Positions 12,889-60,439 of a stretch of 64,000 bases of DNA are shown in pieces. Location of the stretch: assembly GCF_004010195.1 (NCBI RefSeq), contig NC_057752.1:15519031-15583030 (forward strand), written 5' to 3'. The DNA comes from Chiloscyllium plagiosum. Its lineage: Eukaryota. Every line of letters begins with the position of its first letter. Positions within the stretch are counted from its first letter, which is position 1. A program made the translations under genes and the position numbers. The notes under the pieces were generated by a model. It was not told the origin of the DNA and did no database searches. It saw only the letters and a list, made by a program, of their open reading frames with translations.

Positions 12889-12955
12889 ATGACTCCTCTA
12901 AGGCGCATTATATTGAAAATATCTTACATAATTCTTGGGATCATTGGTCTCCCAG
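12889..12955 (+). CDS. GPR139-like GPCR gene A, coding exon 1 (MTPLRRIILKISYIILGIIGLP+G)
   Basis: ATG at 12889, then 22 codons plus 1 nt ending at a consensus donor CAG|GTAAGT. It supplies the N-terminus and first half of TM1 missing from the 21897 ORF, and its phase matches the acceptor at 21918. Confidence 0.85.
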
Positions 12956-13689
12956 GTAAGTGACTGTCATCTTTTCAGTTGCGTGGTCATGACAGTGAGC
13001 TGTTCTCAGGTACGTGCACTGCTCCGGACAGTATTGTATGCTGATCCAGTTATCAATATTGTGCAGCAATATTACTTTCTGGCATTAAAGACCCTGAGTA
13101 ATCTCTACAGTTTTCTTCCACAGCCTCAGGTCATAATAAAGCAGTGGCCTCAGGTTTTCAAGACATTGTGTTTTGTGTAACATTGCATTTTGCATCATCA
13201 ACAGGACAAGCCCTCCGAACGAAGATGAGCGTTTTCATGCTTAACACATTCAAAGATGATGCGATATAGCTCCAGAGCAGATGGGACTTGAACCGAGTTC
13301 TTCCAGCTTAGAGGTAGAGGTAGAGCTCTGCCACAGCTGCATTGCGCTGCGAGTGTTGAACTAAGTTAAAAATCATAACTGCTCAGTCTTTCATCTTTTG
13401 GAATGGTTTGCAGGTTTCGGTTCATTAATATGTAAATCGCAGAACTTATCTCAAGTCACATTCTCGAGATAACTTAAGGTTTAAAAAAAAGGCGACATTT
13501 CCACTCAGACAATGCATTAAAGGTGTGAGTTTGGAGTCTGTCTGCATCCCAAACCTGAGCCAGATTGGTTTTATTTCCAAAGTAGGGATTTATAAAATGT
13601 AACATGGATTGACTGCTCGCATTGCCTGTCTGCAGATTGTGTGCTTTTCAAACAAAATAGAATGATTTCGAACTTGGTCCACACTAGTC

Positions 13690-14340
13690 CTTCACTGGTT
13701 GATCCCAGTGAATACACATTACTATAATTATCTGTCGGTGTAGAACTGCACTCAGTTTGGTTCTCAGCCAGAATGGAAAAAACTGCTCCCAGTGACCATG
13801 TATGACTGGGATTATCTGTCAGCGTTGAACTGCTCACAGTTTGCATTAATGATCAGAGCTGCATCCCTAAAGCTGGTTAAACAATGAGATTATCTGTCAG
13901 GGGACAACTGCACTCAGTGAGATGCACTAACTCGACTAGATTATCCAATAATGTATACAGATATTATTGAGATCATTTGTCCGTCTATAACTGCCCTCAG
14001 TGAGTGCAATTAACTGGAGCAGAGGGTGTGATCCCAGTGAACACGTATTCCCGGCATTGTTTGTTGATGTAGAAGTATCCTCAGTGTGTGCTTCTGACCT
14101 GAGTTGAATTTCCGACTTTAGTGTCTACATATTCCTGGGGTTATCCATCAGTGTGGCAATGCACAGAGTGTCGCTAAATGGCCAGAATTGAAGCCCTGGT
14201 GCCAGTGAACATTTAGTCTTGGGATTATCCATTTGGGGCGAACTGCACTCAGTTTTGGGTGTGACAGGACTGGAGCATCTCACTCCAGGAACATGTACTA
14301 CTAGGATTATTTGCCAGTCTATAACTGCAGTGTTAGCAAC
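13690..14340 (+). repeat. Degenerate ~80-84-nt minisatellite, about 8-9 units
   Basis: Recurring GGATTATCTGTCAGTGTAGAACTGCACTCAGT-like core at ~13725, 13808, 13886, 13968, 14053, 14137, 14221 and 14303, often with CCCAGTGAA. Confidence 0.75.
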
Positions 14341-15709
14341 TTCATTGGATTACACAGTTATATTCTCCGGTTTAATTTTAACTGAATGCCAATGGATAAT
14401 GGGCAGTGCACATGAATATTTCTCTGTTTCGCTTTCAAACATCGATTTCAATGTGTTGAAAGAACAATAATAATGTCAATGTTTCTCTGGTGGAGTTCTT
14501 CCTCAGGTACTGGTATATTTTCTTTCAACAATACTTCACTGGATTTTCTGTGAAGGAATCACCATCCTGTAACAAGATCTGTAACAAGATCGCACCTACC
14601 TGTAAGTCACTGGCAAACACCATATTTCCAAAGCCCTGAAAAGTCAAGGATGGGAAAAACTCGTCGATTCATCAGAATTGCCTTCAGCTTCACGAAAGCT
14701 GCTTGACATTCTGACAACCATCTTTCCATCGAAAATGCCTATCCTAATGCTGAGCTATTTCCTTTCGCATTCAAATGTAGACTGTGCAAACACGTTAATT
14801 CTTGTTAAAAACGTACACCAGACAAGAAGTGTCACTGTACTAGAAGCATCAATTCTGTTTCTAATCCACAAAGCTGCCAGATTTTTTCAGCACTTCCTGT
14901 TTTTGTTTCAAATCTCATCAACTGCAGATATTTGTTTCGTTTCATAATCTCTAAATGGTGATTTCCCATTTTCATTTGCACTAATTTGACAGGTCCCTTC
15001 ATCTCATGGCCATATTTTATTTCAAAAAGACTCAATTCAATCGACATATTCAAAACAACTGTCAATGGAAATGATAACAAGGGAATTCCTTTATCTGAAT
15101 CATTAAGAGAAGATATACAATAAACTCTGATCACGATCTTACAATGTTGATCCATCATTGTATTACAACTTGAATATTTAGGTGACGAGCAGATGACACA
15201 AATTGTCTTATTCTTAATCTATGCAACACTTCCTTGAGCATTTGTGGCAGAACGTTTTCATTGATAGCTTCAGCATCAAGCTCATAACATTGAATTTTGA
15301 CTTTGAAATGGCTTCATAATCTGCACATTTTTCTTCTGATAAACTGGCGTCCACAGTGTTAGCTCTCCCTGTAAAAATACCTTCCAACATTCATGTGAAA
15401 ACACTTTTTATCACTTTGTCTGTCTAGCTATACTGTCAAAAGAGGTGACATTACATTCGTCTCCAAACTCCATAAAGGTATGTAATAAGTTCAGATTTAA
15501 GCTTCAGTTCAATCAAATCCTTCATCAGAAATAACAAATTCCTCATGCTTCTATTTCTTCTTCCATTTTTTCATTTTTTTTTTGCCAGATCCTGTTCTCT
15601 GCTTTCTTTTTCTCCTTGGAGTTTAAAATTCTACAATTTCATTTTTCATGAAGGACTATTGCTCTTTATCCCCTGTTTTGATTTCAAGTTTCCTTAACTT
15701 TTGCATTTC

Positions 15710-58285: not shown

Positions 58286-58289
58286 ATTG

Positions 58290-59334
58290 TGCAGAAAAAA
58301 AATACATTTAAAAAAGCTTTCTCCCGACCACATCCCCTCCAACCACGCTTGTGATAGAGACAACAAGGGCTTAAAATAGAGTCGCTCAACTCATTAGAAG
58401 TCAAAGTAAACTAAAACTCAAATCCCCTTGGGCCATGGCCATCAATCTCTCACGGGACAGGGGCAACACAAATCCTTATTTCTTTCAGAAAGCTCAAAAT
58501 GCAAATGGGAAAAAGATGCATTGGAACAGAAACTTACTGCATGATAATGTCAATTTCTAGGCTGGTGATGCACCCCAGATCCCACAGTGACGACCAGTCT
58601 TGAAAGGCCTCCACCATGCTGGTGATGACCTCGTGCTCCCTTTCCAGGGGCACATGCAACCATGAAAGAGGGATATACAGTCAGGAATGACAAGCCCCTC
58701 CTCGGCCTGCTGCCTGGACCTGTTCATGGCCATCTTGGCCAGGCTCAGGAGCAGAGACATGAGAAGGCTTGTAGACTTGTCCGCCCATCCCCACACCCAG
58801 TGTCAGTAGATCAGGAGGGTGGGACTGAAATGTAAACAATATTTTAACAGCAGCCCCTTCCAAAACGAAAGAAGAGGCTGCAAAAGGACACACTGGACAT
58901 GCACATGGACAACCGTCTCCTCCAGGCCACAGAACTTGTGTGTGGTCTGACACCCGGTGAACTCCCTCAGCGTCCAGTTGCTTCGGACTACAACATGCAG
59001 CACTCTCCACACCAGATCCCTGGTGTAAGAGGGTAGGGATCAGTTGTAGATGACCCTCGGATGGGGATTTCAGCCTATGGAGGGAAAACATCGCTCTAAG
59101 GCAGTCTGGGGAGTGGGCAGAGGCGTAACAGTGGAGAATGTGCAGCATCAGCCCGTACAGATCACGCCTCCGTACTGTTTTAAAGGGCACTGGGAGGATT
59201 TCCCTCAGACAACTCAGATTGTGGAACACTGCGTCATGGGCGTGAGTATGGGGTGTGGGGCTGACGTCGAGTTCCAGATGGGCAGGGGTCAGAATTCTGT
59301 CTCTTTTCTTGCTGCAGAGGACACTGTGTGACAC
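58290..59334 (-). mobile_element. Tx1/L1-clade LINE 3' fragment (unit-2 paralogue)
   Basis: WRVLH..FCGLEETVVHVHVQC..LQPL and LSLAKMAMNRSR, with the same junction next to the GPCR 3' flank. Confidence 0.75.
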
Positions 59335-59561
59335 TGATTGTTCCCAATTTGTTCATGTGCATCCATTGTTCTTGATAGAGTAGTCGATGGTGTGACTTCA
59401 ATGTGCTAATTAATGACATCCTTGTATTGATGCTCTGAGCACCCTTTTCGTCATCACTAACATAAGACAGATTTGCCTCAACAGGACCTTTCTTTTCCTT
59501 CATTCATCGAGCGATCACTGTTGTCCATTCCCCTTCACATGGTGTGGCATTACCATTTGTT

Positions 59562-60439
59562 TTACTGATGCTTCCATTGAATAGTTGGCTTAAAAAGAAA
59601 CATTAACACGTTTGTGAAATTTTCTCTGAACTTGGACAGTGTTGCTATATAAATAAGTGTGTTTGTGCAGCAGTTTATATCCCGGAGCATATATGCAACA
59701 TATTTGAATATATGTTGAGAATAATCATCAAATACATGATCTAAAGTACTGAAGTAATTCAAAAGGTAGCACATCCATAGAAGGATGAAGCTATTGGATA
59801 TCGCGAAGAATAAAATGATAGACTTTCTTCTGCTCTCCATTTCAGGGTCACAATGATTCTGCCCCTTACTCTGACCCTTCAGTCTCTTTTGGGCCTGACT
59901 GGTCACTAAAATGTACCTGACTGTCAGAGTGTTGATGAACAGAATTAAAGCAAATGGGACCATTGGAGTTAAGACCTTTTCAAACCTTTTGAATCCTCTC
60001 CATATGCGATCTTTATAATATGCTTCACTGCTGGTGCAGTACCACTCGACATTGTTAATTATTCATTTAGCCTCATACCTGAAGTAGGTGGGAATGTTTT
60101 TGAAACAGAGCAGGATGCCTGTTGTTGCTAAAACCACTGTCGCAGATTTCTTGGTGCAATATTTCGTTTTCAACTTCTGGCAACAATAGGCAAAGGTAAA
60201 AGTGACGGTGAACCAGACAGAACAATCGGTGGCAGCACGGCACAGGATGTAATGAACTCTGCAGACAGTCGTCACATCCAAGAAATTCCCAGGGAAATAA
60301 TTAGTTTTTTTCCTGTACAGTATGATCTCAAGGAGAATGTACAGTAGATTCGCTGTTGCCATGGCGACCAGGTAACACATGGTGCATGGAGAGATTCCAC
60401 ACTTGCCTCTGAATAAAACCACAAGTGCCAGTGAATTTA
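59562..60439 (-). pseudogene. GPR139-like gene B' (unit-2 copy), exon 2, disabled
   Basis: ORFs 60063-60518 and 59562-59963 are in one frame, split by TGA at 60063-60065. An in-frame deletion removes DRFV (reads FTFAYCCQK). The exon-1 region is deleted near 61048. Confidence 0.9.

What the first reader, a model, noticed from the sequence alone, without database searches (positions are those of the whole stretch)
12889..60439. Tandem birth-and-death array of GPR139-like receptors, organised like a chemosensory receptor cluster
Seen: four loci of one two-exon 7TM family in 64 kb (A intact; B, A' and B' disabled), two diverged subtypes, and amplification by a repeated 26-35 kb unit. Known: mammalian GPR139 and GPR142 are single-copy receptors activated by aromatic amino acids (Trp/Phe). 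Tandem expansion with frequent pseudogenes is typical of OR, TAAR, V1R and V2R families, and cartilaginous fishes have very few classical ORs. Inference: this may be part of a lineage-specific, functionally uncharacterised sensory or immune receptor repertoire derived from the GPR139 branch.
Basis: partly seen in the sequence, partly recalled or inferred. Interest (0 to 1): 0.85.

Follow-up and report, generated by a model that had tools for sequence, protein, structure and literature searches.

The report
Giant hidden shark receptor family
The receptor genes in this window, one intact and three broken, belong to a family with over 2,000 copies in this shark genome whose outer surface is under strong selection to diversify, and which likely works as a large, undescribed set of chemical sensors in animals thought to have very few.

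Summary
Observation confirmed. Gene A is an intact two-exon, 320-aa class A GPCR. B and B' are pseudogenes, and A' is a lone first exon. They sit in old 26-44 kb duplications.

The array is a small part of a huge family: one 34-base motif has 2,074 exact genome hits (control 0). Relatives occur across sharks and rays.

The family does not descend from GPR139. The genome keeps single GPR139 and GPR142 genes. The family groups with their non-mammalian sister lineage (probably 'GPR210'; AU p=0.01 against a GPR139/142 clade), though all share one intron position.

In a young subfamily of at least 476 copies, extracellular loops are under positive selection (omega about 9; 16 of 16 sites extracellular) while the core is conserved. 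That subfamily appears transcribed, but tissue and ligand are unknown. Its first exons outnumber second exons about 2:1, which is unexplained.

Chemosensory function is my best reading (0.5); immune or reproductive roles remain open. I found no paper describing the family in ten searches. This scan noted the family before on other DNA.

The parts
12889..12955 (+). Gene A exon 1 (ATG to mid-TM1, phase-1 GT donor); TATA-like box at about 12806
21919..22814 (+). Gene A exon 2 (rest of TM1 to stop); open frame, 320 aa in all
31412..32258 (-). Gene B exon 2, pseudogene (frameshift in TM3, stop at 31780, deletion in TM6)
34395..34461 (-). Gene B exon 1 with GT donor; TATA box at 34541
53022..53086 (+). 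A': exon-1 remnant, 83% like A exon 1, splice donor deleted, no exon 2
59562..60439 (-). Gene B' exon 2, pseudogene (DRF motif deleted, stop at 60065); collinear exon 1 absent
28611..37798 (.). B-carrying duplication block, homologous to 54604-64000 (offset 26-28 kb, about 75-79%) and, in its right part, to 1-2750 (offset 35 kb)
7222..13379 (.). A-promoter block, homologous in pieces to 51240-54418 (offset 40-44 kb, about 68-83%)

Best explanation
The window is one small tandem cluster of a two-exon class A GPCR family with over 2,000 loci in this shark genome, descended from the sister lineage of GPR139/GPR142, which likely serves as a chemosensory repertoire for external, probably peptide-like ligands. 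Shown: the gene structure, the family size, local duplication and decay, the phylogenetic position, a conserved signalling core, and positive selection on ECL1, ECL2, ECL3 and the tops of TM6/TM7 in one young subfamily. Indicated but less firmly: transcription of that subfamily, with one contig that looks spliced. Inferred: each copy would bind a different set of ligands at the variable outer pocket and signal through a common intracellular face. Peptide-like ligands are inferred from the ECL2 hairpin and the peptide-receptor ancestry. Expression in sensory cells (nose, taste, skin or gut) is inferred from family size and dynamics only.
For: Size: 2,074 exact hits of a TM3 motif, control 0. 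Of 20 picked hits of a narrower motif (picked from the first 100 listed of 1,391), 20 lay in family exon 2: 9 intact, 8 broken, 3 cut by gaps. 1,687 and 2,098 database proteins match; all 120 listed in each search are named from sharks or rays. Core kept: N1.50, D2.50, D3.49, W6.48, N7.49 and Y7.53 in 59 of 59 members. Selection in 36 intact copies of the young subfamily: extracellular dN/dS 1.45 (95% CI 1.10-1.88) versus 0.31 in the core. M2a versus M1a gives 2dL=667, omega2=9.1, with 16 of 16 sites extracellular although that region is 61 of 294 codons. The result holds on a core-only tree, and 0 of 4 null simulations gave a signal. RNA: 4 of 4 laid runs cover exon 2. The one run on record as RNA peaks at the 3' end, with near-zero depth on unique intron, and a 511-nt contig stops aligning at the exon-2 boundary. 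Atlas neighbours include clusters that partly carry nematode Srw/Srx chemoreceptor-type domains. Recalled, not tested: known class A GPCR families with hundreds of intact genes are chemosensory.
Against: No tissue, cell type or ligand was obtained. Gene A itself was not tested for expression. The laid runs come from 4 studies and include one added only by species label, which fits non-olfactory expression equally well. Three of the four runs are only guessed to be RNA. A catshark 'brain and olfactory epithelium' top-50 list held no GPCR genes (PMC11979771, passage). Across 26 older, divergent members extracellular dN/dS averages only 0.47 (core 0.25), so dN/dS above 1 is shown for one subfamily only, not for gene A's. 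The site model is my own code and ignores gene conversion. Gene A is a rather diverged member and may itself be decaying.
Confidence: 0.5

Rival explanations
1. Innate-immune or barrier surveillance repertoire: like FPRs or MRGPRs but far larger, the receptors would detect microbial or parasite peptides on leukocytes or epithelia, with an arms race driving the loops.
For: Very strong, star-like loop hypervariability. Transcripts appear in a single-cell run that was not chosen for holding the sequence. Many clusters lie on small chromosomes and near chromosome ends.
Against: No GPR139-like gene among 8,645 marker rows of a bamboo-shark immune-organ single-cell table that uses RefSeq names (PMC11372145 supplement). 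This is weak, because sparsely expressed paralogues would fail a marker filter. Known immune class A GPCR expansions reach tens of genes, not thousands (recalled).
Confidence: 0.27
2. Reproductive role: young, dispersed copies expressed in germ cells or the reproductive tract, diversified by gamete recognition or genetic conflict.
For: A young subfamily (mean 92% nucleotide identity, at least 476 copies) with fast-evolving outer loops, dispersed in minisatellite-rich DNA. Invertebrate relatives include the sex-peptide/MIP receptor group (PMC12208981, passage).
Against: The family spans many old subfamilies shared across sharks and rays. No testis evidence was obtained.
Confidence: 0.12
3. Mostly non-adaptive amplification: the genes ride on recombination-prone, satellite-rich segments, and only a few copies matter.
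For: 5 of 7 exon-2 loci in 164 kb are dead. Lone first exons occur (A'; 6 in 170 kb of C8). Flanking minisatellites.
Against: Core dN/dS is 0.31 and loop dN/dS is above 1 within a young subfamily. 116 of the 133 best-scoring subfamily copies have no stop (biased to intact). The splice acceptor is kept in 53 of 55 loci.
Confidence: 0.08

Closest known systems
GPR139 and GPR142 (orphan class A receptors; GPR139 is activated by L-Trp and L-Phe)
   Same: Best solved-structure match of the family profile (E 1.5e-15 versus 3.6e-9 for the next). Same phase-1 intron directly before N1.50. Same lack of P7.50.
   Different: Separate clade. Both genes are present as single copies in this genome, and family members are only about 30% identical to GPR139. 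The family has C3.25 (58 of 59), which GPR139/142 lack, and lacks R6.51. The pocket positions 3.32, 3.33, 5x43 and 7.39 are variable.
'GPR210A/B', non-mammalian relatives of GPR139/142 named by Rinne et al. 2019 (PMC6504862, passages)
   Same: Two single shark loci (L047, L059) group with the family at 99/96 support. L059 has orthologues in coelacanth, sturgeon, bowfin, teleosts, amphibians, turtles and squamates, with no mammal named among the 120 listed. L047 pairs with bichir proteins.
   Different: Those genes are low-copy and conserved. The paper has no sharks (0 occurrences of 'shark') and describes no expansion. I could not compare the Ensembl proteins it cites, so the name is likely but not tested.
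Vertebrate OR, TAAR, V1R and V2R chemoreceptor repertoires
   Same: Tandem clusters, birth and death, many pseudogenes, variable ligand-facing surface on a conserved core.
   Different: Unrelated GPCR branch with a conserved two-exon coding structure; no sensory expression shown. Cartilaginous fishes average 43.8 complete genes in these four families (PMC10869828, passage).
RefSeq models 'probable G-protein coupled receptor 139' / 'neuropeptides capa receptor-like' of sharks and rays
   Same: They are this family.
   Different: Automatic labels only; the GPR139 name is misleading, and I found no paper treating them as a family.

Membership tests
Class A (rhodopsin-like) GPCR | 7TM fold and core motifs (N1.50, D2.50, DR3.50, W6.48, N7.49, Y7.53) | tested here: met
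   Pfam 7tm_1 E 7.6e-21; motifs in 58-59 of 59 members; AlphaFold model of exon 2 with TM helices and an ECL2 hairpin, pTM only 0.48
GPR139/GPR142 | One clade with GPR139 and GPR142 | tested here: not met
   Careful tree puts the family with L047, L059 and amphioxus genes; AU test p=0.0099 against family+GPR139/142 (34 rows, long outgroup branch)
GPR139/GPR142 | Phase-1 intron just before N1.50 | tested here: met
   AG at this position in shark GPR139, GPR142 and 53 of 55 family-type loci; absent in the somatostatin-receptor-like outgroup
GPR139/GPR142 | Trp/Phe pocket residues F3x33, H5x43, W6x48, N7x38 (PMC5430874, abstract) | tested here: not met
   W in 59 of 59; F in 10 (Y in 22); H in 19; N not among the five commonest residues at 7.39; gene A has F, N, W, I
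GPR139/GPR142 | Activation by L-Trp/L-Phe | not testable with these tools
   needs a signalling assay
GPR210-type orphan (Rinne 2019) | Clade beside GPR139/142, present in coelacanth, gar and fishes, absent from mammals | tested here: inconclusive
OR/TAAR/V1R/V2R chemoreceptors | Sequence membership in one of the four families | tested here: not met
   Only 7tm_1 matched in Pfam; nearest solved structure is GPR139
OR/TAAR/V1R/V2R chemoreceptors | Clustered birth-and-death expansion with pseudogenes | tested here: met
OR/TAAR/V1R/V2R chemoreceptors | Diversifying selection on the ligand-facing surface | tested here: met
   One young subfamily; not shown for gene A's subfamily
OR/TAAR/V1R/V2R chemoreceptors | Sparse, one-gene-per-cell expression in sensory neurons | not testable with these tools
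   run tissues are not given

The most novel reading that the evidence does not exclude
Sharks and rays carry a fifth vertebrate olfactory receptor family, built from an orphan peptide-receptor lineage, with on the order of a thousand intact genes in this species, about twenty times the described shark repertoire. In its youngest branch, arrays of positively selected first exons may splice onto shared second exons, protocadherin-style, multiplying receptor diversity.
Probability: 0.3. Interest if true: 0.95.

Novelty: new variant of a known kind. Interest (0 to 1): 0.8.

Why it matters
The papers I read describe cartilaginous fishes as poor in GPCRs (PMC8455134, passage). They have about 44 olfactory-type receptor genes despite large olfactory organs, which has been explained as a trade of breadth for sensitivity (PMC10869828; PMC10116579). 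A family of over 2,000 loci under diversifying selection contradicts the paucity at face value. If it is expressed in the nose or skin it would rewrite shark chemosensation. If it is expressed in leukocytes it would be an innate GPCR repertoire of unprecedented size. Either outcome can be tested by re-counting existing tissue RNA-seq at family level.

Tried and rejected
1. That the motif count is inflated by a repeat carrying a GPCR fragment. I suspected this because a TM7 motif (552 hits) missed C8. Rejected: 20 of 20 fetched hits are family exon 2s, mostly of one subfamily with a different TM7.

2. Haplotype duplicates as the source of copy number. Not the main cause: no hit other than itself exceeded 89% protein identity to the L074 query, and 36 copies are at most 97.3% identical in DNA. 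Some inflation cannot be excluded.

3. Origin by local duplication of GPR139. Family copies lie 0.5-1.5 Mb from GPR139 on C21, but the tree rejects descent from it.

4. A transposon carrying the gene. Shared flanks are variable in length, rich in minisatellites and LINE fragments, and show no common 5' end. No dedicated transposase search was made.

5. Structure search was uninformative: generic peptide GPCRs from a low-confidence model lacking half of TM1.

7. RefSeq isoform pairs showed no alternative first exon of different sequence.

8. Supplements. That of PMC11979771 (tissue expression lists) could not be read and may bear on the tissue question. Only 12 of 24 files of PMC8455134 were searched (0 hits). 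PMC10529500 offered one short file (0 hits). bioRxiv supplements are closed.
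Full report
1. The observation. Gene A has a 67-nt first exon (12889-12955, GT donor) and an 896-nt second exon (21919-22814, AG acceptor), giving 320 aa. tblastn finds two more second exons, both on the minus strand. B has a frameshift, a stop and a deletion; B' has lost its DRF motif and has a stop. B's first exon is at 34461-34395. A' is a first exon only, with its donor deleted. A and B types are 62-63% identical in DNA. Self-comparison shows duplicated blocks at offsets of 26-28, 35 and 38-44 kb, at about 72-83% identity. 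In 164 kb around the window there are 7 second exons, of which gene A and one B-type gene about 34 kb downstream are intact.

2. Size of the family. Gene A's exon 2 gave 7,788 first-look candidates in the genome; all 132 scored were 49-100% identical. Exact motif counts are firmer: 1,391 hits for a narrow TM3 motif and 2,074 for a broader one, with reversed controls at 0. By inspection the broad motif matches gene A but not B or B', so dead copies are undercounted. Of 20 hits picked from the first 100 listed (contigs C4-C8, not random), all lay in family exon 2: 9 intact, 8 broken, 3 undecidable. Several hundred to about a thousand intact second exons is therefore my estimate, not a count. Copies lie on many chromosomes, densely on C8 and the small contigs C37-C50. 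Database searches returned 1,687 and 2,098 relatives; the 120 listed each time are all named from sharks or rays, mostly as 'probable G-protein coupled receptor 139'. I did not test chimaeras.

3. Origin. GPR139 is the best solved-structure match. The genome has one true GPR139 (C21) and one GPR142 (C24, 55% to GPR139); family members follow at about 30%. All share a phase-1 intron directly before N1.50 (53 of 55 family-type loci, both orphans), which shows common ancestry. A quick tree of 60 rows and a careful tree of 34 rows (26 redundant or invertebrate rows left out) agree. The expanded family is one clade (100/100). It joins two single shark loci, L047 and L059, with their bony-vertebrate orthologues (99/96), then amphioxus genes (95/90); GPR139+GPR142 stand apart (100/99). 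Forcing the family together with GPR139/142 is rejected (AU p=0.0099). L059's orthologues run from coelacanth to squamates, with no mammal named among 120. This fits the 'GPR210' orphans of PMC6504862 (passages). The family keeps C3.25, which GPR139/142 lack, and of the four GPR139 pocket residues only W6.48 is fixed. Trp/Phe sensing should not be assumed.

4. Selection. One subfamily of at least 476 second exons is young: 36 intact copies (1 with a stop dropped) average 92% DNA identity, with differences packed into ECL1, ECL2 and ECL3. With regions defined by topology, dN/dS is 1.45 (CI 1.10-1.88) outside and 0.31 in the core; IQ-TREE gives 1.72 and 0.38. My M2a/M1a test gives 2dL=667, omega 9.1 on 6% of sites, and 16 of 16 sites with posterior above 0.95 are extracellular. 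This is unchanged on a core-only tree, and four null simulations were negative. Gene conversion is not modelled, and dS is somewhat raised in the loops (0.17 versus 0.105). Among 26 older members near gene A the averages are 0.47 and 0.25.

5. Expression. One intact gene of that subfamily (L174) was laid with four runs at 82% likeness. All cover exon 2. X19, raw poly(A) single-cell reads of which about 2% were read, shows depth about 26 at the 3' end, 7-26 along exon 2, under 1 on unique intron, and under 2 per strand on exon 1, where L174 is a divergent type. In X5 a 511-nt contig aligns from exactly the exon-2 boundary and has 317 other bases before it, as a spliced transcript would. X1, X5 and X9 are only guessed to be RNA. 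Tissues are not given, and gene A was not tested.

6. An unexplained feature. First exons of the young subfamily outnumber second exons: 986 (1,211 with a looser motif) against 476. On the first 12.7 Mb of C8 there are 74 first-exon hits and 24 second-exon loci of any type, with runs of 3, 5, 6 and 9 same-strand first exons upstream of single second exons. A 170-kb stretch holds 6 first exons and no second exon; 4 look intact. All 20 fetched first exons have a GT donor. Three of the lone ones differ at dN 0.20 in the N-terminal segment against 0.07 in the intron (tiny sample). This could be an array of alternative first exons, debris of partial duplications like A', or an assembly effect: about 95 of 133 second exons (my count) are on small unplaced contigs, and motif sensitivities differ. 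It is not resolved.

7. Mechanism. A conserved G-protein-facing core with a rapidly diversifying outer pocket, multiplied by tandem and dispersed duplication and pruned by pseudogenisation, is what a repertoire for external ligands looks like. The predicted ECL2 hairpin and kinship with invertebrate MIP, proctolin and FMRFamide receptors (PMC12208981, passage) point to peptide-like ligands. I put chemosensation at 0.5, mainly because recalled GPCR families of this size are chemosensory; immune surveillance at 0.27; reproduction at 0.12; non-adaptive amplification at 0.08.

8. Literature. Ten full-text searches listed no paper on this family; the library lacks most subscription papers. What I saw of each paper: passages of PMC11979771, PMC8455134, PMC6504862, PMC12208981, PMC10869828 and PMC10116579; passages and section 9 of bioRxiv 10.1101/2025.06.08.657570, whose tandem-cluster survey does not name the family in that section; the abstract of PMC5430874; supplement searches only for PMC11372145 and PMC10529500. 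Residue numbering, motif names and the OR/FPR/MRGPR/protocadherin comparisons are recalled. Three earlier AI notes of this scan report the same family on other DNA; I saw them after forming my reading. The sister-lineage placement, selection test, RNA lay and first-exon excess were tested here.

9. Verdict. Real, large and apparently undescribed in print. It works like a chemoreceptor repertoire in its genomics but is not a member of OR, TAAR, V1R or V2R, nor a GPR139 orthologue. Interest 0.8.

Noticed in passing
G000:C8:1.89-12.7 Mb (L157-L173): First exons of the young subfamily outnumber second exons about 2:1 genome-wide and 3:1 here, with same-strand runs of 3-9 upstream of single second exons; possibly alternative first-exon arrays, duplication debris or an assembly effect.
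   Followed up: partly
L137-L156 and window-external first exons: The young subfamily's first exon encodes a variable number of 14-residue (42-nt) repeats with N-glycosylation-type sequons, followed by a hypervariable aromatic segment; gene A's type has a very short N-terminus instead.
   Followed up: partly
L047 (G000:C98156) and L059 (G000:C26:36.6 Mb): Two low-copy orphan GPCRs, sister to the family, with orthologues in non-mammalian bony vertebrates that databases mislabel as GPR139.
   Followed up: yes
L121-L136, L175-L177: Introns of the young subfamily hold 65-bp and 40-bp minisatellite arrays, and long 28-34-bp satellites or assembly gaps often follow the 3' end.
   Followed up: partly
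G000:C21:58.7-60.2 Mb: Family copies lie 0.5-1.5 Mb from the true GPR139 gene; probably coincidence near a chromosome end, synteny not checked.
   Followed up: no
window 44100-48600 (+): Broken retrovirus-like gag/pol pieces (reverse transcriptase, RNase H, integrase-like frames, by eye) between the B and A' units.
   Followed up: no
window 9123-11252, 38205-40870, 18928-19413, 11629-12147, 53354-53839: LINE-like (endonuclease and reverse transcriptase) and Penelope-like fragments, by eye; four N gaps total 1,897 bases.
   Followed up: no
L052, L060, L063, L064, L067: A subfamily has S-A-D-R-F in place of S-F-D-R-F at the end of TM3.
   Followed up: no
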